From positions 64,001-128,000 of IMG/VR virus record IMGVR_UViG_3300031853_000001: a DNA stretch of 64,000 nt. One strand, written 5' to 3'. Made by a program: the position numbers and the translations under genes. Below are positions 10,889 to 63,509 of the stretch, in pieces. Each line of letters begins with the position of its first letter. Within the stretch, counting starts at the first letter, position 1. The stretch comes from a virus. Lineage: Duplodnaviria > Caudoviricetes. The notes under the pieces are model-generated. The model ran no database searches. It was given only the letters and a program-made list of their open reading frames with translations, and was not told where the DNA came from.

Positions 10889-11770
10889 ATGAGTGATATT
10901 AAGCTTCATTTTTTTGTGGGCATTAGTGCGAGTGGGAAAACGACTAAGGCCTATGAAATGTTTGGTAAAAATTCTGTTATTATAGATTCAGATAATGTTC
11001 GTGCACGAATTTGTCCTGGTGGCGCTACTGACCAGTCTATGAACGCCCGTGTTTTTGAACATATGTATCGTGAAACCTGTGAGTGTCTTTCTCGCGGAGT
11101 TTCTGTTTGCTATGTTGCTACTAATCTATCTGCGAAGCGTCGTATTTCCTTTCTAAAAAATATCCGTAAGCGTTTTCCTGGCCTGGAATGTATCTGCTAC
11201 ATTATTAACACTCCTATTGAAACTTGTTATGCGCGAAACGATAGCCGTTCTCGCACCGTTCCTGATTATGTAATCGGACGCCAGCTTCAGTCTTTTCAAA
11301 TTCCGTGCGAAGCAGAAGGATGGTCGCGGATTGAGGTTGTTGATAACTTTGATAAAAAAGAAGAATATCGTGAAGATACTGTAATGAAGGTTATGAAGTT
11401 TGGCTCCCAACAGAATAAACATCATTCTTTAAGTTTATTTGACCATTGCACTAAGTGCGGCCGCCTTGCTGAAGATATGGGATATGGGGATACTTTGCAG
11501 CAGGCCGCGTATATTCACGATTATGGTAAAATCCATACTGCTGTGCGCTGGCCCGATAAGGATGATGACCTTCATTATCCTAATCATGCACAGGTTGGAG
11601 GTTATCTCGCTTTGAATATGGGTTATTCCCTATATGTCGCACAATTAGTTGGAGCACATATGTATCCCTATGCTTCCGCGCGCGAACAGGAAGTTTGGCG
11701 TGTTCGTTTTGGTGAAAAACTTTGGAATGATGTTCTAAAATTACATAAACTAGATTTGGAGGCCCACTAA
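10889..11770 (+). CDS. polynucleotide kinase (P-loop) fused to HD phosphoesterase (Pnkp-like)
   Basis: GISASGKT, DSDNVR, ATNL...RR, RNDSR; C-terminal H...HDYGK...H...H...D. Confidence 0.85.
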   Translation: MSDIKLHFFVGISASGKTTKAYEMFGKNSVIIDSDNVRARICPGGATDQSMNARVFEHMYRETCECLSRGVSVCYVATNLSAKRRISFLKNIRKRFPGLECICYIINTPIETCYARNDSRSRTVPDYVIGRQLQSFQIPCEAEGWSRIEVVDNFDKKEEYREDTVMKVMKFGSQQNKHHSLSLFDHCTKCGRLAEDMGYGDTLQQAAYIHDYGKIHTAVRWPDKDDDLHYPNHAQVGGYLALNMGYSLYVAQLVGAHMYPYASAREQEVWRVRFGEKLWNDVLKLHKLDLEAH

Positions 11771-14849: not shown

Positions 14850-15632
14850 ATGAATAAGCAAGAAATCTTCAATCATTTTTCTACAATAATTGACGAAATG
14901 ATTAACAATTCTCTTTTTTGGTCTACCTATTGGCAGCGTCCCTATGGTTTTGGTGATACCATAGACGGAAGCGATTATGACGAAATGCCTGCGCACATTT
15001 TAGTGTGTAGCGGTGCGACTCGTACTTGCCTTGTCGATGAAGACTACGATTGGGTTGTTAAGTTTGATGTTGAAGAAGATGCTTATGGTAGCGCTTGTGA
15101 GCGCGAAGAACGTATTTATGACGCGGCGAAGGCTTATGCTCTTGACCGCTATTTTGCGGAAGTAGTGTATCTTGGTCGCTATACGCGCGAAATTAACTTC
15201 TATGACATCTGCGACATTGAGCGTTGGTGTGATTTGTTTGATTATGACCCGAAGTATTTTGAACAGGCTTTTATGGAGAATGAGGAAAAGTTTGGGCCTA
15301 TTCGTCCTATTGTAATTTCTGTGCCGCTTTATGCCTATCGTAAGGCTACTGCTTATGATTGCGGGCCTGTTGATGCAGATAGTCGTGCTCGCGCGAAGAA
15401 GATTGCTAGTCCGCTTTATTCTCGCAATATTGCGGTTGCAACTGCTTTCATCCGCGAATTTGGTATGGATGAATATAAGGCTTTTTCTGAATTTGGTCTT
15501 GAATGGGATATTAACGACCTTCATTGTAATAATGTTGGGGAAATTGACGGACATTTTTGTATAATTGATTACTCTGGATACCACGACCCTTATTATGATG
15601 ACGAAGATGAAGATTGGAAGAAAGGAGATTAA
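14850..15632 (+). CDS. protein-kinase-like fold protein
   Basis: SGATR..VVKF, E..IY, catalytic-loop-like DLHCNNVG and IIDY. Confidence 0.55.
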   Translation: MNKQEIFNHFSTIIDEMINNSLFWSTYWQRPYGFGDTIDGSDYDEMPAHILVCSGATRTCLVDEDYDWVVKFDVEEDAYGSACEREERIYDAAKAYALDRYFAEVVYLGRYTREINFYDICDIERWCDLFDYDPKYFEQAFMENEEKFGPIRPIVISVPLYAYRKATAYDCGPVDADSRARAKKIASPLYSRNIAVATAFIREFGMDEYKAFSEFGLEWDINDLHCNNVGEIDGHFCIIDYSGYHDPYYDDEDEDWKKGD

Positions 15633-15640
15633 AAATAATA

Positions 15641-16450
15641 ATGGACCATTCTGATATTGGTGCCCGTATGAAGGCATACGAAAATTGTTATAGACTATAT
15701 CTACCGAAGCGCCAGGCCGTTATTGTCCGTATTGATGGCAAGGCGTTCCACAGCTTTACAAAGGGTTTTAACCGACCATATGATACTGTATTCGCAAAGG
15801 CTATGTGGGAAACCGCAAAGCAGCTTTGTGAAAATATTGGTGGTTGTGTGTTTGGTTATACACAAAGCGACGAAATTTCCCTTGTTCTGGTAGATTATAA
15901 GAATATTAACACCGAGCCTTGGTTTGGCAATAATCTACAAAAAATTGTAAGTATCAGCGCGAGTATGGCTACTTTCTTTTTTAGGCAGAATTTTATAAAC
16001 TCTATTGTAAAGCATGACCATCTTTCTCCAGAAGAGCAAAACGCTCATTTTAAAGCTTATGGAGAAAAAATGGCTGTATTTGATGCTCGTGCGTTTATTC
16101 TTCCACGAGAAGAAGTTTCTAATTATATTTACTGGCGGCAACTAGACTGCGTGCGAAATAGTATTCAACTTGCGGGCCAGACTTACTTCTCGCACAAGCA
16201 ACTTCAAAATAAGAATTGCGACCAGATTCAGGAAATGCTTTGGCAAGAGCACCAAGTAAATTGGTCTAAGTATCCTACTTGGTTTAAGAATGGTGTCGCT
16301 ATTTACAAGCAGCCACGAGAAATTTCTTACGCAAATGAAGATGGTTCCGCCGCGTGCGTAGTGCGAGATAAGTGGACTATTGACCTAGAAATGCCAATGG
16401 TTTCTCAAAATCCTGACTTTATTAATAAGTGGGTTATTTTTAAGGAGTAA
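15641..16450 (+). CDS. tRNA(His) guanylyltransferase Thg1 / TLP 3'-5' polymerase
   Basis: RIDGKAFHSFT, YTQSDEISL, FDAR, WRQLDCVRNSI. Confidence 0.95.
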   Translation: MDHSDIGARMKAYENCYRLYLPKRQAVIVRIDGKAFHSFTKGFNRPYDTVFAKAMWETAKQLCENIGGCVFGYTQSDEISLVLVDYKNINTEPWFGNNLQKIVSISASMATFFFRQNFINSIVKHDHLSPEEQNAHFKAYGEKMAVFDARAFILPREEVSNYIYWRQLDCVRNSIQLAGQTYFSHKQLQNKNCDQIQEMLWQEHQVNWSKYPTWFKNGVAIYKQPREISYANEDGSAACVVRDKWTIDLEMPMVSQNPDFINKWVIFKE

Positions 16451-16875: not shown

Positions 16876-17310
16876 GTGAATGAGAGGTTTTTTAAATTCG
16901 CGCGTGAAGCGTCCAAGAAAGCGGATTATTGTGGTGATAATGGAAAAGGCCATGCACCCGCGATAGGCGGCGTTGCAGTTTTGAAAGGCTCTATTGTAGC
17001 AGAAGCTTGGAACACCAATAAAACCTCTCCTCTTCAAGCAAAGTATAATAAGTATCGGTATTATAATCCTTCTCTAAAGGATAAATCTCATTGTGAGACA
17101 GTTCTTTGTCAAAGATTGAGATGGAAATTTGGAGATAATTTAGATTGGTCAAAAATTGATATTTATCTTTATAGGGAATATAAAGATGGTAGACTCGCAA
17201 TGTGTCGTCCTTGTTGTAGTTGCTTGCATATGTTGAAAGAAGAATTTGGTATTAAAAGAATTTTTTATACTACTCCAGATGGTTTTTGTGAAGAAAAATT
17301 TAAATTATGA
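16876..17310 (+). CDS. zinc-dependent cytidine/adenosine deaminase-fold protein
   Basis: PAIGGVAV..G.IV...WN, HCE, RPCCSC, GIKRIFY. Confidence 0.8.
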   Translation: MNERFFKFAREASKKADYCGDNGKGHAPAIGGVAVLKGSIVAEAWNTNKTSPLQAKYNKYRYYNPSLKDKSHCETVLCQRLRWKFGDNLDWSKIDIYLYREYKDGRLAMCRPCCSCLHMLKEEFGIKRIFYTTPDGFCEEKFKL

Positions 17311-40941: not shown

Positions 40942-41017
40942 GCCGTCATAACTCAATTGGTAGAGTAGCACATTAGTAATGTGCAGGTTTTCAGTTCAAG
41001 TCTGAATGGCGGCTCCA
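40942..41017 (+). tRNA. tRNA-Thr(AGT)
   Basis: full cloverleaf, gcaca-ttagtaa-tgtgc, CCA. Confidence 0.9.
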
Positions 41018-41579: not shown

Positions 41580-41682
41580 TAGGCACAAACAGCAATTTTC
41601 TTTATTTAAGTATTGAGAAATTGTAGTATGTTGAACGGTCAAATATTAGAAACCATAGCTATTAAGCAAAACGAGTGCCTAG
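41580..41682 (+). ncRNA. ACAGCAA-scaffold RNA #1
   Basis: taggcac-aaACAGCAA...gtgccta-g; cargo AU-rich hairpins. Confidence 0.7.
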
Positions 41683-41903: not shown

Positions 41904-42031
41904 TAGTCGCTCACAGCAATCGTTCTTTATAGAACATATGGGTTCGAATCCCATACCACGCACCAAATCGCGTAGTTAGCCAAATGGTTTAGGCAGATGT
42001 CTAACAAACATCCTTCTATTAAAGCGACTAG
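41904..42031 (+). ncRNA. ACAGCAA-scaffold RNA #2 with circularly permuted tRNA (anticodon AAC, Val)
   Basis: tagtcgct-cACAGCAA...agcgacta-g enclosing T arm, 3' acceptor, ACCA, linker, 5' acceptor, D arm, anticodon arm. Confidence 0.85.
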
Positions 42032-50060: not shown

Positions 50061-50136
50061 AATTCTGCTATAATAATATTGTAAAAAAGAAAAGCCCTAG
50101 TCCAGGGCTGACCAAATGAAAAGGAGATTTAAAATT

Positions 50137-51756
50137 ATGACTAATTTCAATCAGGTAGTTTCTAATTTTGTTGCTTCTCAGAATTCTTACCCTGTTCGTA
50201 AGAATATTAGCAAGGCTCACGCTTCTTCCTTTATCAATGCGATGAAGCAAGAGGATAACTTCAAGTATACCGAAAATGGTGCGGTAGCCAAGAAGTCTAC
50301 TATGTCCAAGCTATACGACCTATTTGCACTTGGCGGCTCCTATCGTTCTCGCACCGAGAGCGATTGTATCGTTCTTTTTAAGAACGCATATCAGGAGAAC
50401 CCTGCCTATGCTCTAAAGTGCCTATGGTATCTTCGTGATATTCTTGAGGGTCAGGGTGAGCGTCGTTTCTTCCGTGTTTGCTTAAAGTGGCTTGCTACCT
50501 ACGACAAGCAGGCTGTACTACGCAACCTTGATACCATTGCCCGTGATGGTTTCGGCCGCTGGGATGATCTGTTTGTCCTATTTGACACTCCTTGCGAGGA
50601 TGCTGTTATGAAGCTGATTGAAAATCAGCTAGTTAGCGACCTAAAGGCGTATCAGGCCGGTGCCGCAGTATCTCTACTTGGCAAGTGGATTCCTTCCGAG
50701 AACTCCTCTTCTGCCAAGACTAAGCATAATGCTCGTCGCATTATTGCTGCTCTTCACGTATCTCCTCGTGAGTATCGTAAGACTCTATCTGCTCTGCGTG
50801 AGCGTATCCACGTTGTAGAGCGTCTTATGTCCCAGAACCGTTGGGACGAGATTGATTTCTCTCATCTACCTTCTCGTGCTGGCCTGATCTATCGCAAGGC
50901 TTTCGAGCGTCGCGATATGATTCAGCAGAAGTATCGTGAGTTCGCGAAGGATACTTCTACCAAGGTAAATGCTGGTAAGCTATATCCTTACGACGTTGTG
51001 CGTGAGGCACAGAAGGTTATGCACTGTGATTCCTACTGGAATTATGGTTCTCGCGAACCTCGCCTAGACGACACCCAGCGTCTAATGGTTAATAAGTATT
51101 GGGATAACCTACGTAATGTTTTCCCTGCGGGTGAAAACTTTAACGCTATGGTTGTTTGCGATACTTCTAGCTCTATGCTAAATGGAGCAAGCAATACTGC
51201 TTCTCCTATGCAGGTTGCGGTATCTCTGGCAATGTATGCCGCAGAGCGTGCCAACGGTCCTTTCAAGAACCATTATATCAGTTTCAGCCGTCAGGCTCGT
51301 CTGGTAGAGGTTTTTGGTGCGGACTTCTGCGACAAGGTATCTCGTATCATCCGCTCCAATGTGTGCGAGAATACCAATCTTGAAAGTGTTTTCGACCTAG
51401 TGCTAAATACTGCTATGCAGTATCGCCTACCTCGTAACGCTATGCCTAAGACTCTTGTAGTCGTGTCCGATATGGAAGTAGATCGTTCTGCGGGTATTTC
51501 CAGTCATAAGGAAACCTTTATGGAGTCTATGCGTCGTAAGTGGGCTCAGAAGTGCGGCAACCGCTATGAGTTCCCTGACGTAGTGTTCTGGAATGTGTCT
51601 GCTCGCAACGATACTTTCCTAGACGATCCTAAGAGTGGCATTACTTACGTGTCTGGCTGCAGTCCTGTACTGTTTGAGCAGATTCTGTCTGGTAAGACGT
51701 CTATTGACCTTATGCTAGACAAGCTTAACGCTCCTCGCTACAAAGACATCTACTAA
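50137..51756 (+). CDS. DUF2828-family protein (TROVE/Ro60-like helical domain + vWA)
   Basis: TENGA...ST...DLF, LRD...GQGER, GRWDDL, SL..KW.P, MIDAS-like DTSSSM, TNL..VF, SDME, FWNV, VSG.SP; own promoter (50046) and terminator. Confidence 0.85.
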   Translation: MTNFNQVVSNFVASQNSYPVRKNISKAHASSFINAMKQEDNFKYTENGAVAKKSTMSKLYDLFALGGSYRSRTESDCIVLFKNAYQENPAYALKCLWYLRDILEGQGERRFFRVCLKWLATYDKQAVLRNLDTIARDGFGRWDDLFVLFDTPCEDAVMKLIENQLVSDLKAYQAGAAVSLLGKWIPSENSSSAKTKHNARRIIAALHVSPREYRKTLSALRERIHVVERLMSQNRWDEIDFSHLPSRAGLIYRKAFERRDMIQQKYREFAKDTSTKVNAGKLYPYDVVREAQKVMHCDSYWNYGSREPRLDDTQRLMVNKYWDNLRNVFPAGENFNAMVVCDTSSSMLNGASNTASPMQVAVSLAMYAAERANGPFKNHYISFSRQARLVEVFGADFCDKVSRIIRSNVCENTNLESVFDLVLNTAMQYRLPRNAMPKTLVVVSDMEVDRSAGISSHKETFMESMRRKWAQKCGNRYEFPDVVFWNVSARNDTFLDDPKSGITYVSGCSPVLFEQILSGKTSIDLMLDKLNAPRYKDIY

Positions 51757-51772
51757 GGTTAAGTATAAATTT

Positions 51773-51798
51773 GAGATGGAGAAATCCATCTCTTTTTT
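51773..51798 (+). terminator. intrinsic terminator
   Basis: gagatgga-gaaa-tccatctc-tttttt. Confidence 0.85.
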
Positions 51799-51851
51799 AT
51801 TTGACTTATTATAAAAATTTTGATATAATATTTATAGAAAGGATGAGGAAA

Positions 51852-52208
51852 ATGAACTATTACATTTATTTGGATGATGTGCGCGAAGATGATACTTGGT
51901 TTCGACAGCATTTGAATACCGAGCATTGGATTCCTTGTGTTGTTCGTTCTTATGAGGAAGTAATTCATATTCTTGACCATATGCAAGATTATATGGACAA
52001 GGATGAAGTGCTTATTCTCGACCTTGATCACGACCTTGGCGAAACTGAAGATGGTTACAATGAACTCGCGCACACAGGATATGATGTTTGTAAGTGGATG
52101 ATAGAAAATCATTTCCCTGCCTGCTATTTTCACATTCATAGCATGAACGCTAGTGGTTCTGCGAATATGCGACAACTTCTTACTCACTATGGCTATAAGG
52201 AGATTTAA
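51852..52208 (+). CDS. cyclic-phosphate-processing receiver-domain protein
   Basis: YLDDVR, LDLDHDLG, TGYDV.KW, IHSMN..G..NM. Confidence 0.8.
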   Translation: MNYYIYLDDVREDDTWFRQHLNTEHWIPCVVRSYEEVIHILDHMQDYMDKDEVLILDLDHDLGETEDGYNELAHTGYDVCKWMIENHFPACYFHIHSMNASGSANMRQLLTHYGYKEI

Positions 52209-52667: not shown

Positions 52668-53318
52668 ATGCGTAAGTACGAAAAAATTGAAACTCTATTT
52701 GCCCGCGATATGGAAGGCACTAAAAAGCTAATGCCGGGTATTTTTCGTGACCCGACTATTGAGTTTCTTCAGTATTGTGATTGGGTATGGACTGAGAAGA
52801 TAGACGGCACTAATATCCGCGTGTATTGGGATGGCCATAAGGTTACTTTTAGTGGCCGTACCGATAACGCAGTTATTCCCGCAGAACTTATCACTCGTCT
52901 AAATGAACTTTTTAGCGGTGAGACTAATGCTCAAATTTTTGAGCAGGCTTTTGGCGATAAGGAAGTTATTCTATTCGGTGAGGGCTATGGTCGTAAAATT
53001 CAGAAGGGCGGTGGCAAGTATATTGCCGATGGCGTTGATTTTATTCTATTTGACGTTCTAATTGGTGAGAATTATCAAGAACGTGAATGGGTTGAAAGCA
53101 CCGCCAAGATGTTTGGTATTAAGGTCGTCCCAATTGTGGGTGGCGGTTCGCTTGAAGACGCTGTAAATTATGTTAAGAAGCACCCTAATTCGATAATTGC
53201 GGAAGATGTACGAGAAATGGAAGGTATTGTATGTAGACCCGCTGTTGAGCTACGTGACCGTCGTGGTAATCGTATTATTGTAAAAATTAAGTGGGAAGAT
53301 ATAAAGGAGCTTATTTAA
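52668..53318 (+). CDS. Rnl2-like RNA ligase
   Basis: motif I EKIDGTN, LFGEGYG, FDV, EGIV, KIK. Confidence 0.85.
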   Translation: MRKYEKIETLFARDMEGTKKLMPGIFRDPTIEFLQYCDWVWTEKIDGTNIRVYWDGHKVTFSGRTDNAVIPAELITRLNELFSGETNAQIFEQAFGDKEVILFGEGYGRKIQKGGGKYIADGVDFILFDVLIGENYQEREWVESTAKMFGIKVVPIVGGGSLEDAVNYVKKHPNSIIAEDVREMEGIVCRPAVELRDRRGNRIIVKIKWEDIKELI

Positions 53319-53663: not shown

Positions 53664-54640
53664 CTCAGCGCAAAAGGAGAGCAAGCTGTTACTCCGAGTG
53701 AACTTATCGGCGCTATATAAATAGGAAAAACCAATTAAATACAGTATTTTAAATGAAGTAATAACTGCCATAGAAGTCATGACCTATGATAGAAGACACT
53801 TCATTTAAAGCAACCGGTTGATTTGCGCAATTAAGTCGTTAGAAGCGACTAGAGGGAGAGACCCTGACTAATAAGCAAGTCCATTCTATGAAATGGTAAT
53901 GTCGAAAACCAATTAGTGTAAAGTAGCATACCTTACCAATAATAAGGAGAATCAGCGTAGCGAACTGAATTGGCGTACTGGAATTTGTTGTCCAGAGTAG
54001 GCATAAATCGAGCAGCAATGCGGTAATACCCGTGCACAGGTAGCTAAATTACCCTGGCTCACCAATTATTTTAGAAGATAAGACTTGAGCTTATCTCTGG
54101 CTATGAAGCGAGTGCCGTGCCGCAGATGCGGTGCTTAGTGGAGCCTATGTGGGTTTAGCGTGTCAACCACAATGCGGATAGGTATTAACCGAAAGAAAAC
54201 ACGCTTTAATGGCGCTTTATCCCAAGCCTTTTCGCGGCGGCGCTATAAGTACCAAAAGGTATTATTTAATACTGAGCGTGAAACTAAGAGGGAACTGAAG
54301 GCTGTGCCAAGGTGAAAGGCTAACAGTCCGAGTGATGACCGTTGAAGCCATTCGGTGCATAGTGGTGCCGTTAAAGCGATGGATGCATACATCGTCCACT
54401 TCATTTAATGACTTGATGCTTATCAAGCTAGAACTATCGAGGACGTGTGCGGTGGGAATGTTTGAGATTAGATGTAGATAGTTTAAGTATAGACTTGCGG
54501 TGCAAGCCTAATCAACTGGCGTTCCGCGGCCAGAATACTTTGCGGGCTTTATTGATTCGGGAGGAAGTGTCCGTAGATGAACTTCTCGGAGTAATCGCCA
54601 TAATCGAATCAGCCGTGCGGCTGGCATAATGCCGCAATAT
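53664..54640 (+). ncRNA. about 1-kb structured non-coding region with embedded tRNA-like domains
   Basis: no credible ORF; many hairpins; cloverleaf-like 53907-53975 (loop ccaataa) and ACCA-ending unit 54010-54064. Confidence 0.55.
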
Positions 54641-54760
54641 GGCACCGTAGTGCAAAGGTAAGCACGCCGGCCTTTGTGAGATAGGGTAAAGTGCAGTTCA
54701 ACTCTGCCGTCTCGCACCACAAGCCGGTGATGCTGGGTTCAAGTCCCGCCGGTGCTTCCA
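54641..54760 (+). tRNA. tRNA-Glu(TTC) interrupted by 44-nt mini-tRNA insert (54676-54719)
   Basis: removing the insert gives ccggc-cttt|caa-gccgg; CCA. Confidence 0.85.
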
Positions 54761-58297: not shown

Positions 58298-58311
58298 GCT
58301 GATTGAAATTA

Positions 58312-58379
58312 AGGCGGACACAGCAAATAACTATTTAAGCAATAATCTTTTAAATTATGTAGCTAAAATAACCGCCTAG
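58312..58379 (+). ncRNA. ACAGCAA-scaffold RNA #4 carrying a Lys(UUU) anticodon stem-loop
   Basis: aggcgg-acACAGCAA...ataat-cttttaa-attat...ccgcct-ag. Confidence 0.75.
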
Positions 58380-58386
58380 AATTTAT

Positions 58387-58464
58387 GTGCCCGTGGCGCA
58401 ACTTGGCAGACGCGCTACACTTAGGATGTAGATTTTCAGAGTTCAAATCTCTGCGGGCGCACCA
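58387..58464 (+). tRNA. tRNA-Leu(TAG), short variable region
   Basis: ctaca-cttagga-tgtag, CCA. Confidence 0.88.
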
Positions 58465-59117
58465 GTCACTCCTCGCTAATGCGACAAGTCGCGTTAACAT
58501 TTGTTTGTTAGCTACTGTTGGAAAACGCGACTTTAAAATACAAAGAAGCAACAGTAAATAGCTCAAACCGTATGTTGAGACTATCGTAACTATCACATTC
58601 TAGGAGTCCTGACTCGTTATTGGACTTAATACTCAACGGAGTTGGCGCCCAAACAAATCCTAGAATGTATATGGTATCAAGTGAAGAGCCTTCTCGTGGC
58701 GATACTGATTTCGACTAATCTTCACAAAATATTAAAGCGTGCTTTTCCTTGCTGTACACTTGTTGAAAAGCCAAATGTTCCCGTATGAGAATACGCAGGT
58801 TATACCTGTATATTGAAATCCCATAAGACGTCACAAAGGAATGGATAGAAATTACAATGGGCCATTCAGAAAGTAGAACACTTTAATATTTGACTTTTTC
58901 TGAAAATTCTGGTATAATAATTACAGAAACAAGGAAAGGACAAAATAATGAAGATACTTGTTGTAAATAAAGATGAGAAAATACAATTAATTCATCTCCT
59001 AAAACAAGAAATACGCAAACCTGGTTGTCCTTATGAATTACTTACTATTTTAGAAAAACTTAGTCCTGGAGACTATGAATATCTTTTTACAACTATGAAA
59101 TAAAAGAAAGGAAGTAG

Positions 59118-59693
59118 ATACTCCATTTAATAAAATGGTTGAACCAAGTGAAGAAGAGTTAACCACTCTGCTTGGGCTATCTAAATAACAGCCATACGAT
59201 TTAGCGGGATACTACTAAATCGCGGCCACGAAATCAGTAATGATTAGTGATAAGGAGAAACTCTTAATGTTAAGGATAGGCGCTTGGTTATTCGCTAACA
59301 AAAACTTGGCTCCTTGCGGCGTCGTAATAGAAAGCAGATTGAGCAGATTTGCCGAACCCAGAAAAGACTTTAAGGTGGCAGTTAAAGGGACTCTGGGAAA
59401 GCCATAAGACGTTTGGTGTCGTTGAAACCTAGAAATAGGATATAAGCAAGGTTCACAGATAAAGTAGCCTAAAACGACAATGATTCTAATAAGTAATTTA
59501 ATTAGAATAATGTGCTGAATGGTTTAGGTGAAATTTGGGAGTAATCAGTCTCCCCGTTGCTAGCCAAAAGGCAGGATGAAGAAGTTAAAGGGTCGCTACC
59601 TTTGGCTCAGCCTTCATCTTCAACGTGGTTGAATATGTTAGAAGGATAATACAAGTACGGCGAAGGTCGCAACGGTTTTATTAAATGGGGTAT
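59118..59693 (+). ncRNA. 576-nt large structured RNA, ROOL-like
   Basis: 23-bp terminal stem atactccatttaataaaatggtt/aacggttttattaaatggggtat; size and tRNA-cluster context fit ROOL; family not verified. Confidence 0.6.
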
Positions 59694-59700
59694 TTGCCCT

Positions 59701-59795
59701 AGACTTTAAGGTAGCATTGGAGTAATTAACCAATGAGACAAAGATGCTCCTACATCGGCTTAAAGTTTAAAATATAATCATAGGAGTGATTTAAT
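59701..59795 (+). promoter_or_regulatory. HEG-leader pseudoknot motif, copy D
   Basis: agactttaag-GTAGC-hairpin-GAGACAAA-GATG ctccta CATC-GG-cttaaagttt; loop pairs taggag (SD). Confidence 0.72.
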
Positions 59796-60356
59796 ATGCC
59801 AAGGAAAATTGATTTAACAGGAAAAATTTTTGGAATCATACAGGTAGATTCGCCAGCACCAAGTCAATCTGGTAAAACGTATTGGAATTGTCATTGTACA
59901 ATTTGTAATACTAAAAAAGTAATTCAAGGTTGCGCCTTAAAAAATGGTTCTATTAAAACTTGCGGTTGTGGTTGTTCTTTTCATAAACAAAATACTTCAA
60001 AAATTTGTGAAATTTGTGGAAAAGAATTTATTCCAATAAAATTTGGCGGTGCTAGAAAATATTGTTATGAATGTTCTCCGCAAGAAGGCTCAGAAACAGA
60101 TAAGCGCACAGTTATAAGACGAGCTTTAAAAAAGATGCTAGTTGATTATAAAGGTGGAAAATGTGAACGATGTGGATATAATAAATGTTTACGCGCATTA
60201 GAATTTCATCATTTAAATCCGTCTGAAAAAGATTTTGGAATTTCTGGATGTATAACTAAAAATGTAGAAGAATTAAAAAATGAAGTTAATAAATGTATTT
60301 TAGTTTGTTCTAATTGTCACGCGGAAATTCATGAAGAATTAGACGAGGCCCGTTAG
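59796..60356 (+). CDS. HNH endonuclease
   Basis: GGKCERCGY....ALEFHH..P..K.F...KC.LVCSNCH.E.H; stop lies inside tRNA-Asn. Confidence 0.9.
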   Translation: MPRKIDLTGKIFGIIQVDSPAPSQSGKTYWNCHCTICNTKKVIQGCALKNGSIKTCGCGCSFHKQNTSKICEICGKEFIPIKFGGARKYCYECSPQEGSETDKRTVIRRALKKMLVDYKGGKCERCGYNKCLRALEFHHLNPSEKDFGISGCITKNVEELKNEVNKCILVCSNCHAEIHEELDEAR

Positions 60357-60423
60357 TCCAGTTGGCAGAACGATAGACTGTTAATCTATGTCAGCGCTGG
60401 TTCAAGTCCAGCACGGGCCGCCA
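60347..60423 (+). tRNA. tRNA-Asn(GTT)
   Basis: ataga-ctgttaa-tctat, G73, CCA. Confidence 0.9.
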
Positions 60424-60703
60424 TAGTCACATAGAGGACTTATTCTCTATGCTTGCTCAACGTCCCACTTATGTGAACGCGCGAAGTCACATAAGAGAGT
60501 CAACCCTTCCGAAGTACGAAGGAACCCCTAAAATGGTCTGTGGGGATAAGCGGTGTCATGAACCGCCTAATGTAGCTGGCAAAGAGCATAGGTTCGTTAG
60601 GCTCCTAAGAAAAGCCTATCACCATCACGATAGCAAATAAGTGAATAAACGGATACGCGGTTAGCTGACCTTAAAGCTATTCTAATCTAGAGGAGAATAA
60701 AAT

Positions 60704-61243
60704 ATGAGTGACGTAAGACTAAAAATTTTACCTCCATGGACAGTAACAATTCGTAAGTTTGAGGCACTATTTGACGGTGACCCACAAATTGCTTGTAATT
60801 GTAATTTCTCAGGTTCTAATCCTTCTATTGTACTAGCTTGTAATAATGGTGATAAGGTTGCTGCTCTACAGCAGATTCTTCCTTCTGAAGTTGGCTTTGG
60901 CAATATTAAGCTAAAGGTCGCGGTTGATGGTGTTCCTTCTAATCGTACTTTCAAGAGTAAGGTTGAACTATTTGACACGGCTTTCAAGGGGAATCCAGCA
61001 TACGCTTATTCTGCATGTCCTGCTGAGGAAGGTTATCAGTGGATTGGGACTACTTATGTTGTATTTAATAACTGTGTAGTGCAGTTCGCGGCGGACAATC
61101 TAAATGATTGCCATGGTATTATTAGCACCCTATATGAAACTATCGCAAGCGAACTTCTAACTGGCCCCGCTACTGATGGTGTATTTTATAATACAAATGT
61201 AGAACGTGCTGGGCTTGGTCTTTCGCTAGGAGAATGGCCATAA
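60704..61243 (+). CDS. conserved hypothetical phage protein
   Basis: LPPW...LF..DP, L.P....FGN, F.GNP, YVVF...VVQF..DNL.D..G..STLY..IA. Confidence 0.65.
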   Translation: MSDVRLKILPPWTVTIRKFEALFDGDPQIACNCNFSGSNPSIVLACNNGDKVAALQQILPSEVGFGNIKLKVAVDGVPSNRTFKSKVELFDTAFKGNPAYAYSACPAEEGYQWIGTTYVVFNNCVVQFAADNLNDCHGIISTLYETIASELLTGPATDGVFYNTNVERAGLGLSLGEWP

Positions 61244-61464
61244 AAGATAAGTTCACTGGGCTCTTCTAAAGTCCAGTACCAAAGCCGAATGTCACATAAA
61301 GTTAACGACGGTGCGGTATGAAAAGACCACGCTGTAGTGGCACGGGCAGAGCTAATCCGGCAAGGAAAGCGGCGGTTAAAGTGAAATCGCGACGCGGAAA
61401 GAGAAAGAATAACAACCAGTGATGGGTCGAAAGACGTCTTATCAGTTTTCTCGGTCACTTTTAT

Positions 61465-61538
61465 AGTCCGTTAGTTTAACAGTAAAATATAACCCTGTCA
61501 CGGTTAAGTTACGAGGGCAGCACTCGTACGGACTGCCA
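61465..61538 (+). tRNA. tRNA-Asp(GTC)
   Basis: taacc-ctgtcac-ggtta, G73, CCA; atypical T loop ggcagca. Confidence 0.85.
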
Positions 61539-61657
61539 TAGACTCAAACAGCAATATTTTACTTGCATGTGGGGCCGGAAGTATTGGTTTAACTCCAGTT
61601 CTCTCCACCACATGGAGAGATAGTGTAACGATAGCACGCCGTATAGTATGAGTCTAG
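61539..61657 (+). ncRNA. ACAGCAA-scaffold RNA #5 with circularly permuted tRNA (GTG, His-like)
   Basis: tagactc-aaACAGCAA...gagtcta-g enclosing gc-atgtggg-gccgg, T arm, tctctcc-ACCA, linker, ggagaga, D arm, ccg. Confidence 0.82.
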
Positions 61658-61662
61658 TATAT

Positions 61663-62215
61663 CGGGTTGTAGCGCAGTTTGGTAGCGCGCCTCGCTTGGG
61701 AAAAGCGATTTGTGCTTAATTATTATGTTAGACATTACTCAACAAAAAGGAACGATTACAGAATTACGATGTATTTTAGATTTAACTAATTTGGGAATAC
61801 GATGTTTAGTTCCTGTAGATGAAAGTTCTAAATATGATGTAGTAGCAGATTTAAATGGTACTTTTATTAGAATTCAATGTAAAACAGCTTGTTGGGCTAA
61901 AGATACCGTTCAAGAAAAAGTAGCCTTTGAAATAGATACTTGTCGAAGTACAACAAATACTAAAACTACTACTCATTATAAGTATTCTGCTAATGAAATT
62001 GATTATTTTTATACATGGTTTGAAGGACAAGGTTACTTAGTCTCCATTAAAGAAGCAAAAGGTTTAACTTTTAGATGGCGATATGAATATCCTTCTACCA
62101 ATCAAAAACAAGGTATTCATATCGCAGAATTATATAAGACTGAGGAGGTTTTAAAAGCACTCTAAAATTTTCCTGGACGAGGAGGCCGCAGGTTCAAATC
62201 CTGCCTGCCCGACCA
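61663..62215 (+). tRNA. tRNA-Pro(TGG) split by an ORF-bearing insert (about 61699-62174)
   Basis: 5' half cgggttg..cctcg-cttg; 3' half gga-cgagg..ctgcccg-ACCA; rejoined loop cttggga. Confidence 0.88.
61725..62165 (+). CDS. PD-(D/E)XK endonuclease inside the tRNA-Pro insert (I-Ssp6803I-like family)
   Basis: KGTITE, P....YDVV.D..G.FIRIQCKT, Y...EIDYF. Confidence 0.85.
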   Translation: MLDITQQKGTITELRCILDLTNLGIRCLVPVDESSKYDVVADLNGTFIRIQCKTACWAKDTVQEKVAFEIDTCRSTTNTKTTTHYKYSANEIDYFYTWFEGQGYLVSIKEAKGLTFRWRYEYPSTNQKQGIHIAELYKTEEVLKAL

Positions 62216-62326
62216 TAATCAACTGGGTTTGAAGGTTATCCCATTTGAAAAACCTTCCCCTTTCTTTCTTGACTTTTTCTAAAAATTTTGATATAATAAA
62301 TATATCAAAGGAAAGGAAATAAAAAG

Positions 62327-62554
62327 ATGGATAAGAAAGAACTTTCTACTAATGCGGCAAAAGCAGAATTTGTAAAGTCTATTCATAATTGGCTTATGCG
62401 AACTTTAGAGCAAAACAATAAATCTGAATATAAAGATTGTTTTACTGTTGAAGGTTCTAGTATTATGTGCCAACTGCCGCAAGACTACTTTAATTCATGT
62501 AGTATTCCAGCGAACACTAAGATTGAAATGAAGTTTATTTCTAAGAAATCATAA
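62327..62554 (+). CDS. hypothetical protein
   Basis: promoter 62269-62297, SD gaaagga. Confidence 0.6.
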   Translation: MDKKELSTNAAKAEFVKSIHNWLMRTLEQNNKSEYKDCFTVEGSSIMCQLPQDYFNSCSIPANTKIEMKFISKKS

Positions 62555-62558
62555 CTAA

Positions 62559-62651
62559 TAAGCCTTTACTGCAATTACTTAAATGGTTAAATTATTTTGC
62601 TTGAATACAAAATGAGAGAAGGTTCGAGCCCTTCACAATTAAAAGGCTTAG
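62559..62651 (+). ncRNA. ACAGCAA-scaffold RNA #6 (ACTGCAA) with acceptor-less tRNA body
   Basis: taagccttt-ACTGCAA...aaaggctta-g; D-loop aaatggttaa, attttg-cttgaata-caaaat, gaagg-ttcgagc-ccttc. Confidence 0.75.
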
Positions 62652-62666
62652 CAAAGTTAGAAACTA

Positions 62667-62733
62667 AAGGCACAAGCAGCAACAAGACGTTTTAATAATT
62701 TGATAGTGGATTAAATTTATTGAGTGTGCCTTG
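62667..62733 (+). ncRNA. ACAGCAA-scaffold RNA #7 (GCAGCAA)
   Basis: aaggcaca-aGCAGCAA...tgtgcctt-g; inner hairpin loop tagtgga. Confidence 0.65.
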
Positions 62734-62741
62734 ATTATTAA

Positions 62742-62818
62742 GTCGGTTTAGCTTAGCTGGTTAAAGCACTCGCCTTGTAAGCGAGAGACCTTCGGTCCGA
62801 ATCCGAAAACCGGCTCCA
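62742..62818 (+). tRNA. tRNA-Thr(TGT)
   Basis: ctcgc-cttgtaa-gcgag, CCA. Confidence 0.9.
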
Positions 62819-62839
62819 TCTAAAAGAAGGAGTATTAAA

Positions 62840-63286
62840 ATGGGACTTTTTAATCGGTCTAAAAAAGAGCCTACAAAACAATATATTCCACCTGAGCAGC
62901 CTAAAAAATGCGAGCATAAATTTCAAGATTTTCCTTGGTATATAGAAGGAGAAGAAAATGAAGGTAATGTATATGGTTGTAACTCTTGGTATCATCTAGT
63001 AATTAAAGAACCTTATGTTTGTATTTATTGTGGCGAAAGATATGATAAAATATTGTGGGAAATAAGACGATATGGCTCTCATAAAGAAGCAATGCAGGCT
63101 CTAGATGATGTTAATGAAAAATTTAAAGACCGAATAAGACATCGCGCAGAAATTGAAGATATGATAAATGATATGCAATTAGTCGATCCTCAATATTTAC
63201 AATATTATCATATGCTTCAGGGAACAAAAGACCCATCTACTTCTCGATTATATGAGCAAGAAATTAAACCAAAATTAAAAACTTAA
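62840..63286 (+). CDS. hypothetical protein (CxH...CxxC)
   Basis: SD aggag, CEHKF...YVCIYCG. Confidence 0.6.
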   Translation: MGLFNRSKKEPTKQYIPPEQPKKCEHKFQDFPWYIEGEENEGNVYGCNSWYHLVIKEPYVCIYCGERYDKILWEIRRYGSHKEAMQALDDVNEKFKDRIRHRAEIEDMINDMQLVDPQYLQYYHMLQGTKDPSTSRLYEQEIKPKLKT

Positions 63287-63289
63287 TTT

Positions 63290-63409
63290 TATGCGGTCAC
63301 AGCAATTTTAGATTTAATCTAAGTGTCATCGGTTCGATTCCGATTATTCCAGCCATTTAATTTGGAGTGTAGCTCAATTGGTAGAGCATTAGAATTATAA
63401 ACCGCATAG
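63290..63409 (+). ncRNA. ACAGCAA-scaffold RNA #8 with circularly permuted tRNA (Lys/Asn-like)
   Basis: tatgcggt-cACAGCAA...accgcata-g enclosing tctaa, T arm, tattcca-GCCA, linker, tggagtg, D arm, ttaga. Confidence 0.85.
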
Positions 63410-63420
63410 TACGATATTTA

Positions 63421-63487
63421 AGACGCTTACAGCAATTTAATACAGTCGCACACATAAATAATTACATGACTAAGTAATAGAGCGTCG
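63421..63487 (+). ncRNA. ACAGCAA-scaffold RNA #9
   Basis: gacgct-tACAGCAA...agcgtc. Confidence 0.65.
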
Positions 63488-63509
63488 CGTTTTTATTTGA
63501 GGAATTAAA

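What the first reader, a model, noticed from the sequence alone, without database searches (positions are those of the whole stretch)
61539..61657. Permuted His-like tRNA (GUG, A73) and a phage Thg1
Seen: the 3' part (gc-atgtggg-gccgg, T arm, tctctcc-A-CCA) precedes the 5' part (ggagaga, D arm, ccg). Joining ccg+gc restores a ccggc/gccgg stem with a GTG anticodon, so the break is in the anticodon stem. It lacks the encoded G-1 and has A73. Established: Thg1 adds G-1 to such tRNA-His. No ordinary tRNA-His is present in this window. Inference: a substrate or mimic for the Thg1 at 15641. A Pro-like reading of the tgggg loop cannot be excluded.
Basis: partly seen in the sequence, partly recalled or inferred. 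Interest (0 to 1): 0.78.

Follow-up and report, generated by a model that had tools for sequence, protein, structure and literature searches.

The report
Phage Y-RNA-like tRNA mimic
The "back-to-front histidine tRNA" is a real, conserved RNA shape, but it is one of at least seven small RNAs in this rumen phage that share a tagged clamp helix and probably dock onto the phage's own Ro60-like protein as tRNA look-alikes; it is not a working histidine tRNA.

Summary
Window 61539-61656 folds as an inside-out tRNA: an 8-bp closing stem, the box ACAGCAAU, a GUG-containing loop, T arm, a 7-bp acceptor stem whose loop reads A-CCA-CAU, D arm, then back to the closing stem. Six related phage contigs keep it, with compensatory changes in the acceptor stem and the split anticodon-like stem, and a G19-C56 to A19-U56 swap.

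The tRNA-His reading does not hold. The GUG loop survives in only 2 of 6 distinct orthologs; loop length runs from 7 to 10 nt and U33 is lost. The phage Thg1 is real but is the bacterial template-dependent type.

The element belongs to a widespread phage RNA family (closing stem + ACAGCAA + cargo) that matches no Rfam 15 family. This window holds at least 7 members. Of 33 viral records with such RNAs, 26 encode a DUF2828/DUF7788 protein, against about 1.4% of deposited phages. In this window that protein (50116-51756) models as a Ro60 ring. A cyclic-phosphate-processing domain and an RNA ligase lie beside it.

Best reading: a Y-RNA-like tRNA mimic for a Ro60-like RNA-repair particle. Binding is inferred, not shown. 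Earlier agents of this scan found the same RNA family on other genomes.

The parts
61539..61546 (+). 5' strand of the 8-bp closing (clamp) stem, UAGACUCA. It starts directly after the CCA of the upstream tRNA-Asp-like gene.
   Evidence: It pairs with 61649-61656 and is invariant in the 6 orthologs. Across the wider family the stem sequence differs from member to member while pairing is kept.
61548..61555 (+). Family box ACAGCAAU (the handle).
   Evidence: ACAGCAA is invariant in 51 aligned short family members. Orthologs of this element show UCAGCAAU, CCAGCAAU and ACAGCGAU.
61565..61578 (+). Anticodon-arm analogue. GC (61565-61566) and GC (61574-61575) close the loop AUGUGGG (61567-61573). CGG (61576-61578) pairs with CCG at 61639-61641.
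   Evidence: The CCG/CGG helix has 2 pairs changed on both sides. Loop sequence and length are not conserved.
61583..61599 (+). T arm: AUUGG / UUUAACU / CCAGU, with U in place of C56.
   Evidence: Orthologs with UUC in the T loop carry GG in the D loop. Those with UUU carry GA. This is consistent with a G19-C56 to A19-U56 swap.
61600..61620 (+). 7-bp acceptor stem UCUCUCC / GGAGAGA, closed by the loop A-CCA-CAU.
   Evidence: Three pairs change on both sides (UCUUCCC/GGGAAGA, UCUCCUC/GAGGAGA). N-CCA is kept in 6 of 7 ortholog rows.
61621..61641 (+). U8-A9, D arm (GUGU / AACGAUA / GCAC), G26, and CCG (positions 27-29).
61649..61656 (+). 3' strand of the closing stem, UGAGUCUA, followed by GUAUAU and then the 5' end of tRNA-Pro at 61663.
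   Evidence: The tail after the stem is G/A-U-U/A across the family.
41904..42030 (+). Sibling RNA: same handle, tRNA-like cargo with a complete AAC anticodon arm and an A-CCA-AAUC acceptor loop.
   Evidence: Its orthologs have a sealed ACA triloop, and the anticodon changes from AAC to AAU.
63289..63409 (+). Sibling RNA: same handle, tRNA-like cargo, G-CCA-UUUAAU acceptor loop.
   Evidence: (partial Rfam YrlA match, 30.4 bits, model positions 23-87).
41580..41681 (+). Sibling RNA: same handle, cargo not tRNA-like.
58312..58377 (+). Sibling RNA: same handle (ACAGCAAA), cargo is a Lys(UUU)-like anticodon hairpin.
   Evidence: Orthologs switch between CUUUUAA and CUGUUAA loops with compensating stem changes.
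62558..62650 (+). Sibling RNA with the box variant ACUGCAAU. The clamp stem stands in place of the acceptor stem of a tRNA-like body.
   Evidence: weak tRNA match 62573-62641, 20.1 bits. Orthologs in L151, L122, L123 and L168 carry ACAGCAAU.
63422..63486 (+). Sibling RNA: same handle, short cargo.
50116..51756 (+). Ro60-like protein (DUF2828 + DUF7788/vWA), the inferred protein partner.
   Evidence: Pfam hits. AlphaFold2 model: pLDDT 79, pTM 0.74. The top 12 PDB fold matches are all Ro60/TROVE, E 4e-8 to 1e-4, over about 520-590 alignment columns.
51771..52208 (+). cREC (cyclic-phosphate-processing receiver) domain protein.
   Evidence: PF20274, E 1.8e-18.
52668..53318 (+). RNA ligase (PF09414 family).
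   Evidence: E 4e-18.
15614..16450 (+). Thg1-like protein of the bacterial TLP type. Its link to the RNA is not established.

Best explanation
The element is a small non-coding RNA of the Y-RNA type: a tRNA look-alike held on a conserved handle. Shown: it is one of at least 7 RNAs in this window built as closing stem + ACAGCAA(N) + cargo + closing stem. The family is widespread in phages and strongly co-occurs with a DUF2828/DUF7788 protein. This phage encodes that protein in the same tRNA/ncRNA island, and its model has the Ro60 ring + vWA fold. Shown: the tRNA-like core (acceptor stem, T arm, D arm, elbow contact) is kept by compensatory changes, while the anticodon-like loop drifts. Inferred: the RNA is cut out of a polycistronic tRNA transcript by the enzymes that trim its neighbours. 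tRNA-Asp-CCA ends at 61538 and tRNA-Pro starts at 61663. Inferred: the handle docks on the Ro60-like protein, and the tRNA-shaped cargo presents a tRNA surface. That surface could recruit tRNA-handling or repair enzymes (the adjacent cREC and RNA ligase, the distant kinase-HD protein and Thg1-like protein, or host enzymes), or it could soak up host tRNA-cutting defence nucleases. It does not decode histidine codons.
For: Family: 90 of 116 viral contigs hit by the pattern ACAGCAAT...GGTTCGAWTCC carry stem-closed elements. 51 short members align with ACAGCAA invariant and closing stems that differ from member to member. Partner: DUF2828 occurs in 26 of 33 records with elements and in 8 of 9 records at least 90% complete among all 48 searched, against 692 of 50,697 deposited phage records. 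In a Felix O1-like coliphage the gene sits directly upstream of the tRNA cluster, which holds three such RNAs. Ro60 fold of the window protein. RNA-repair neighbours. Core conserved, loop not. Sibling orthologs have sealed acceptor loops and shifting anticodons. The order of arms matches the YrlA tRNA-like module (PMC4201824). Phage TROVE proteins with a tRNA-like partner in RNA repair are already in print (PMC7824862). A phage Ro60 binding phage Y-like RNAs has been shown (PMC12135203).
Against: There are no binding, expression or processing data for this RNA. The Pfam TROVE model does not match the protein, and sequence searches of the PDB find nothing, so only the fold links it to Ro60. The handle ACAGCAA differs from the known bacterial Rsr-binding motif GNCGAAN0-1G (PMC4201824). 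The protein gene lies about 10 kb from this element. The encoded N-CCA in all three tRNA-like RNAs of this phage is not needed by a purely sealed mimic. Co-occurrence counts include related records, so they are not independent.
Confidence: 0.68

Rival explanations
1. Two-piece, CCA-ended tRNA-like RNA, the reader's 'substrate' idea in a weaker form. RNase P cuts before G61614 and the 3' side is trimmed to ACCA. The result is a nicked tRNA mimic with free acceptor ends, on which the phage Thg1-like protein, the CCA-adding enzyme or a synthetase could act, as seen for Mycobacterium smegmatis YrlA. This can coexist with Ro60-like binding.
For: A 7-bp acceptor stem followed by N-CCA and a 3-6 nt linker occurs in all three tRNA-like RNAs of this phage. 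It occurs in 16 of 70 family members, against 1 in 64 expected by chance, and is kept in 6 of 7 ortholog rows of this element. M. smegmatis YrlA, with a 7-bp stem, is cut by RNase P and receives CCA in vivo (PMC4201824). Thg1 occurs in 9 of 48 handle-RNA records.
Against: Most family members have short sealed loops such as UUCG, ACA or GCUUU. Orthologs of the sibling at 41904 have an ACA triloop where this phage has ACCAAAUC. N-CCA plus a 3-6 nt linker is also what a birth from two adjacent CCA-encoding tRNA genes would leave behind, given that spacing here is 3-4 nt. Thg1 and N-CCA do not track each other once related records are merged.
Confidence: 0.12
2. Decoy or bait for host anticodon nucleases, acting on its own. 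The tRNA-shaped and anticodon-arm-shaped cargos absorb or report host tRNA-cutting defence enzymes, without needing the Ro60-like protein.
For: Of 53 short family members whose cargo is a canonical anticodon hairpin, 14 are Lys(UUU)-like and 13 Asn(GUU)-like. From my own knowledge, these are classic targets of anticodon nucleases. Orthologous elements switch between these two loops. The phage carries an RNA-repair gene set.
Against: The loop of this particular element is not a conserved canonical anticodon loop. AT-rich composition favours UUU and GUU loops, and the sample is not independent. The strong link to DUF2828 argues that the protein takes part.
Confidence: 0.1
3. True circularly permuted tRNA-His gene. 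The handle is removed, the two halves are ligated across the anticodon stem by the phage RNA ligase, the acceptor loop is opened, G-1 is added by Thg1, and the product is charged with histidine.
For: In this phage the re-joined stem gives a 7-nt loop with U33, GUG and a purine at position 37. There is no other tRNA-His. The phage has an RNA ligase and a Thg1-like gene. The split stem is supported by covariation.
Against: The anticodon loop is not conserved in sequence or length among orthologs. There is no bulge-helix-bulge motif, splicing endonuclease or RtcB. No known enzyme would remove the handle. Position -1 is U and position 73 is A or G, not G-1:C73. The Thg1 is the templated bacterial type. 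The same layout recurs with sealed acceptor loops across the family.
Confidence: 0.05
4. Decaying relic of a tandem tRNA duplication, with no function.
For: The N-CCA-linker layout fits an origin from adjacent tRNA genes. The T and D loops are non-canonical.
Against: It is kept in 6 related contigs at 77-94% identity with compensatory changes, including a tertiary pair. It carries the conserved family handle.
Confidence: 0.05

Closest known systems
YrlA-type bacterial and mycobacteriophage Y RNAs bound by Rsr/Ro60 (Rfam RF02553; Chen et al. 2014, PMC4201824)
   Same: The 5' and 3' ends pair in a stem. The body is a tRNA mimic in the order T arm, closed acceptor stem, D arm. The RNA is encoded near a Ro60-type protein and RNA-repair genes. 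One member (M. smegmatis) has a 7-bp acceptor stem that is cut by RNase P and receives CCA.
   Different: The handle is closing stem + ACAGCAA, not the GNCGAAN0-1G bulged helix. The protein is DUF2828/DUF7788, which Pfam TROVE does not recognise. Rfam YrlA gives no match for this element and 30 bits (cut-off 69) for a sibling. An anticodon-arm analogue is present, and here it is split by the handle.
Thermus phage phiLo Ro60 with its Y-RNA-like Yrl1 and Yrl2 (PMC12135203; PDB 9KOP, 9L5Y)
   Same: A phage-encoded Ro60 ring protein that binds phage-encoded small stem-closed RNAs. These are the best fold matches of the window protein.
   Different: The phiLo RNAs were picked by a CGAA motif and sit next to the gene. 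The paper's text does not mention tRNA-like features.
Circularly permuted tRNA genes of Cyanidioschyzon merolae and Thermofilum (from my own knowledge)
   Same: The 3' half precedes the 5' half, and a short linker follows the acceptor 3' end.
   Different: Those precursors form a bulge-helix-bulge motif, are circularised by the splicing endonuclease and ligase, and give tRNAs with conserved anticodons. None of that is seen here.
Class I RNAs of dictyostelid amoebae (PMC7919456)
   Same: A short stem joins the 5' and 3' ends. A conserved 11-nt motif lies next to the 5' stem strand, with C6, C9, A10 and A11 fixed, which fits ACAGCAA at positions 5-11. The middle is variable, and the mature 3' end carries CUGU, as in many phage members (...CCUGUU).
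   Different: They are eukaryotic, about 60 nt, with no tRNA-like cargo described; the reported binder is an RRM protein. The exact motif is only in a figure I could not read, so the match is partial.

Membership tests
Functional tRNA-His | GUG anticodon in a conserved 7-nt loop with U33 | tested here: not met
   GUG occurs only in the window and L168. The other orthologs have UGUAGGA, AUACAUGGG or GCAUUGAGGA.
Functional tRNA-His | G-1 (encoded or added) opposite C73 in bacteria or A73 in eukaryotes | tested here: not met
   Position -1 is U in all orthologs and position 73 is A or G. Whether G-1 is added could not be tested.
Circularly permuted tRNA gene | 3' half upstream of 5' half, with a linker after the acceptor 3' end | tested here: met
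Circularly permuted tRNA gene | Bulge-helix-bulge at the termini, plus a splicing endonuclease and ligase to circularise | tested here: not met
   The termini form a perfect 8-bp stem next to ACAGCAAU. The genome has no tRNA_int_endo and no RtcB. A PF09414 ligase is present.
Circularly permuted tRNA gene | A joined or circular RNA form exists | tested here: inconclusive
   Four rumen RNA runs gave only one low-depth exact contig (61576-61726) and no joint inside the element.
YrlA (Rfam RF02553) | tRNA-like module in the order T arm, closed acceptor stem, D arm | tested here: met
   The sibling at 63320-63393 aligns to model positions 23-87.
YrlA (Rfam RF02553) | Score at or above the gathering threshold (69 bits) | tested here: not met
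   No match for this element at E up to 10; the sibling scores 30.4 bits.
YrlA (Rfam RF02553) | Rsr-binding stem with GNCGAAN0-1G | tested here: not met
   The stem is followed by ACAGCAAU instead. The motif is as given in PMC4201824.
YrlA (Rfam RF02553) | Encoded near a Ro60 ortholog | tested here: inconclusive
   A Ro60-fold protein lies about 10 kb upstream in the same RNA island, but it is not a Pfam TROVE member.
ACAGCAA-handle RNAs (not found in Rfam 15 or in the papers searched) | 6-10 bp closing stem, 0-2 nt, ACAGCAA(N), cargo, 3' strand, then G/A-U-U/A | tested here: met
   Here: an 8-bp stem, 1 nt, ACAGCAAU, and tail GUA.
ACAGCAA-handle RNAs (not found in Rfam 15 or in the papers searched) | Genome also encodes a DUF2828/DUF7788 protein | tested here: met
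   Family-wide: 26 of 33 records.
ACAGCAA-handle RNAs (not found in Rfam 15 or in the papers searched) | The RNA binds that protein | not testable with these tools
   No RNA-protein binding tool was available. This rests on co-occurrence only.

The most novel reading that the evidence does not exclude
In this phage lineage the Ro60-like particle carries 'live' tRNA mimics. RNase P opens the acceptor loop to give a two-piece RNA with a genuine CCA end and a 5' phosphate. The phage Thg1-like protein, ligase, cREC and kinase-HD enzymes then work on it. It would serve as a repairable bait that draws host tRNA-cutting defence nucleases away from real tRNAs, or as a sensor of such attack. More broadly, ACAGCAA-handle RNAs plus DUF2828 would be a second, unrecognised Ro/Y-RNA system reaching from phages to dictyostelid Class I RNAs.
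Probability: 0.15. Interest if true: 0.8.

Novelty: new variant of a known kind. Interest (0 to 1): 0.55.

Why it matters
Y RNAs with tRNA-like modules are known for classical Ro60 (Rsr). Here the handle and the protein family are both different. The pair is common in phages, including laboratory phages of the Felix O1 type and relatives in Listeria, Staphylococcus, Mycobacterium and Vibrio phages. It matches no Rfam 15 family, and I found it in no paper. If the pairing is real, it defines a second Ro-type ribonucleoprotein that phages place among their tRNA genes and RNA-repair enzymes. That bears on how phages withstand host attacks on tRNA, and it gives DUF2828 a testable function. For annotation, it warns that 'permuted tRNAs' in phage tRNA clusters are mostly mimics, not decoders.

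Tried and rejected
1. blastn of 61400-62300 against deposited phages gave no match.
2. Pfam TROVE, RtcB and tRNA splicing endonuclease were all absent from the genome.
3. Sequence and profile searches of the PDB with the DUF2828 protein gave nothing useful. Only the fold search found Ro60.
4. RNA evidence: four rumen metatranscriptome runs laid on 58300-63500 gave one exact low-depth contig over 61576-61726 and no joint or back-joint inside the element. The apparent 61688-to-62184 joints carry other letters between the two sides and look like other organisms' tRNA-Pro, so they are not splicing evidence. Nothing can be concluded about expression or processing.
5. The minimum-free-energy pairing GGC (61573-61575) with GCC (61638-61640) was rejected, because L123, L124 and L154 would have an A-C mismatch there.
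6. Thg1 versus N-CCA loops: Thg1 occurs in 9 of 48 records, but the N-CCA-bearing, Thg1-positive records collapse to about two lineages. Sealed-loop members also occur in Thg1-positive records. No usable association.
7. A genome-wide scan for 'acceptor strand + N-CCA + complement' returned mostly chance hits.
8. A covariance model of the family was not built; regular-expression and stem scans sufficed.

Full report
**What is there.** The window is bases 64001-128000 of a complete 180,932-bp virus record with 34% G+C. Public runs place it in bovine and sheep gut samples. At 61539-61656 the sequence reads as follows:
- an 8-bp stem strand UAGACUCA, one A, then the box ACAGCAAU;
- a short hairpin region that contains the loop AUGUGGG;
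- GCCGG, four bases, and a T arm;
- the acceptor 3' strand UCUCUCC, then A, CCA and the linker CAU;
- the acceptor 5' strand GGAGAGA, UA, a D arm, G and CCG;
- seven bases, then the stem strand UGAGUCUA.

ARAGORN and the Rfam tRNA model do not call it. The RNA folds better than any of 200 shuffles (z = -3.1).

**Conservation.** A neighbouring protein (60704-61243) fetched 74 related viral loci. Six of them hold an ortholog of the element at 77-94% identity. On the 6 distinct sequences, 99.4% of the proposed pairs are standard. Five pairs change on both sides: three in the acceptor stem and two in the CCG/CGG helix, which becomes CUU/GAG in L151. No shuffle reaches the covariation score, and sliding the partners drops pairing to about 40%. 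Orthologs with UUC in the T loop have GG in the D loop, while those with UUU have GA. That is what a G19-C56 to A19-U56 exchange at the tRNA elbow would look like.

**Why it is not a tRNA-His.** The loop that holds GUG is the least conserved part. It reads AUGUGGG in the window and L168, UGUAGGA in L123, L124 and L154, AUACAUGGG in L125 and GCAUUGAGGA in L151. Its length therefore runs from 7 to 10 nt, and U33 is lost. A decoding tRNA does not tolerate that. Position -1 is always U and position 73 is A or G. The genome does lack any canonical tRNA-His, but it also lacks Val and Ala tRNAs, and phage tRNA sets are often incomplete.

The Thg1 gene is real. Its closest solved relative is the Bacillus thuringiensis Thg1-like protein (E 1e-62), whereas eukaryotic Thg1 enzymes score E 1e-9 to 1e-10. 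From my own knowledge, not checked in a paper here, that bacterial class extends 5' ends by Watson-Crick templating and repairs truncated tRNAs. It is not expected to place G-1 opposite A73.

**The family.** The box ACAGCAAT occurs six times in the window, all on the + strand. Five of the six lie in the tRNA islands and are flanked by a closing stem whose sequence differs each time.
Ninety of them carry stem-closed elements, often several per locus.
- The common plan is a 6-10 bp stem (often starting UAG, AGG or AAG), 0-2 bases, ACAGCAA(N), a cargo, the 3' strand, and then G/A-U-U/A.
- Fifty-one short members align with ACAGCAA invariant and stems that differ from member to member.
- Cargos are either whole inside-out tRNAs or bare anticodon-arm-like hairpins. 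Among the hairpins, Lys(UUU)-like and Asn(GUU)-like loops make up 27 of 53.
- This window holds at least seven members: 41580-41681, 41904-42030, 58312-58377, 61539-61656, 62558-62650 (box variant ACUGCAAU), 63289-63409 and 63422-63486.
- Rfam 15 has no family for them. The only echo is a partial YrlA match (30.4 bits against a cut-off of 69) to the tRNA-like core of 63289-63409.

**The protein partner.** The genome has no Pfam TROVE protein and no RtcB. It does have a 546-aa ORF at 50116-51756 with DUF2828 and DUF7788/vWA domains. This ORF is followed by a cREC (cyclic-phosphate-processing) domain protein and a PF09414 RNA ligase.
- An AlphaFold2 model built on 26 homologs (pLDDT 79, pTM 0.74) has Ro60/TROVE structures as its 12 best PDB matches. 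These include Thermus phage phiLo, Xenopus, Deinococcus and human Ro60, over nearly the full length (E 4e-8 to 1e-4).
- Of 33 viral records chosen because they carry handle RNAs, 26 encode DUF2828. Most of the seven without it are short fragments. Among all 48 records searched, 8 of the 9 that are at least 90% complete have it.
- Among 50,697 deposited phage records, 692 (1.4%) have a homolog.
- In the Felix O1-like coliphage vB_EcoM_AYO145A the gene lies directly before the tRNA cluster, which contains three handle RNAs, one of them tRNA-like.

These counts are not corrected for relatedness, and no binding has been measured, so the RNA-protein pairing remains an inference.

**Known context.** Bacterial Y RNAs of the YrlA type pair their ends in an Rsr-binding stem and carry a tRNA mimic. 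The M. smegmatis RNA, which has a 7-bp acceptor stem, is cut by RNase P and receives CCA (PMC4201824). Aravind and colleagues noted phage TROVE proteins as RNA-repair platforms with a tRNA-like partner, and they defined cREC (PMC7824862). A phage Ro60 has been shown to bind two phage Y-like RNAs and host PNPase (PMC12135203). The present RNAs differ in their handle (ACAGCAA, not GNCGAAN0-1G or CGAA) and in the protein family.

**The CCA question.** All three tRNA-like RNAs of this phage have N-CCA directly after a 7-bp acceptor strand. So do 16 of 70 tRNA-like family members, far above the 1 in 64 expected by chance. Two readings fit.
- These members may be opened by RNase P and expose a CCA end, as in M. 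smegmatis.
- Or the motif may be a birthmark of origin from two adjacent CCA-encoding tRNA genes, which in this phage are spaced 3-4 bases apart.

Orthologs of the 41904 element have a sealed ACA triloop and an anticodon that changes from AAC to AAU. That favours the second reading for that element. Thg1 occurs in 9 of 48 handle-RNA records but does not track N-CCA once related records are merged.

**Processing.** The element begins directly after the CCA of a tRNA-Asp(GUC)-like gene (61465-61538) and ends six bases before tRNA-Pro (61663). The 41904 element lies likewise between tRNA-Ser and tRNA-Arg. Release by the enzymes that trim the flanking tRNAs is the simplest route; this is an inference. 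Laying four rumen RNA runs on the region gave too little cover to say anything.

**Verdict.** The histidine and Thg1 interpretation is not supported, although 'mimic' is right. The element is a Y-RNA-like tRNA mimic of the ACAGCAA-handle family, probably the RNA partner of a Ro60-like protein within a phage RNA-repair set. Earlier agents of this scan reached the same family-level reading on other genomes. I re-tested the co-occurrence and the Ro60 fold here.

Noticed in passing
window 61663-62217: tRNA-Pro(UGG) is split after the anticodon by an insert of about 478 nt (61701-62178). The insert is almost filled by a PD-(D/E)XK endonuclease ORF (PF11645, 61725-62165), and no group I intron match was found. 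The apparent 'spliced' contigs in RNA runs carry other letters between the two sides and look like other organisms' tRNA-Pro. Another agent has reported on this (e1-5823827).
   Followed up: partly
window 54641-54757: A 117-nt tRNA with an insert of about 44 nt in the anticodon loop. The insert contains a T-arm-like hairpin and ends in ACCA. Depending on the exact boundaries, the anticodon reads UUG, UUC, UAC or CAC. Others in this scan read it as tRNA-Glu.
   Followed up: no
window 61465-61538: A tRNA-Asp(GUC)-like gene found by Rfam (45.8 bits) but missed by ARAGORN. Its T loop is GGCAGCA and its D loop AACAGUA lacks GG. It shares the AAGU variable loop and the D-loop type with the neighbouring mimic.
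   Followed up: no
window 62558-62650: A handle RNA with the box variant ACUGCAAU. Its clamp stem replaces the acceptor stem of a tRNA-like body, and the anticodon-like loop has 8 nt (CUUGAAUA). Orthologs carry ACAGCAAU.
   Followed up: partly
window 16876-17310 and the tRNAs at 40942, 42037, 42386: A cytidine/deoxycytidylate-deaminase-like ORF (weak PF00383 match, 22.7 bits, below the 25-bit cut-off) lies two genes after the Thg1-like gene. The phage encodes tRNAs with A34: Thr AGU, Arg ACG, Leu AAG. It may be a phage tRNA A34 deaminase.
   Followed up: no
window 10889-11770: An ORF with a P-loop kinase domain (AAA_33) and an HD phosphohydrolase domain. That layout would suit healing of RNA ends before ligation.
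   Followed up: no
window 59120-59688 and 54098-54209: A full-length ROOL RNA (315 bits) and a drum RNA (70.8 bits) lie in the same tRNA/ncRNA island. ROOL-like contigs reach depths of hundreds to thousands in sheep and bovine gut RNA runs, mostly from relatives (85-95% alike).
   Followed up: partly
family-wide (loci L002-L195): Short handle RNAs often carry canonical anticodon hairpins. Lys(UUU)-like and Asn(GUU)-like loops make up 27 of 53. Orthologous elements switch between the two, with compensating stem changes.
   Followed up: partly
L198:13713-14511 (Escherichia phage vB_EcoM_AYO145A, NC_028825.1): A cultivable Felix O1-like coliphage has three unannotated handle RNAs inside its tRNA cluster, immediately downstream of its DUF2828 'RNA-binding protein' gene.
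   Followed up: partly
family-wide; PMC7919456: The layout of a short end-joining stem, an 11-nt motif with C6, C9, A10 and A11 fixed, and a 3' CUGU in dictyostelid Class I RNAs fits the phage handle. I could not read the exact motif because it is printed only in a figure.
   Followed up: partly
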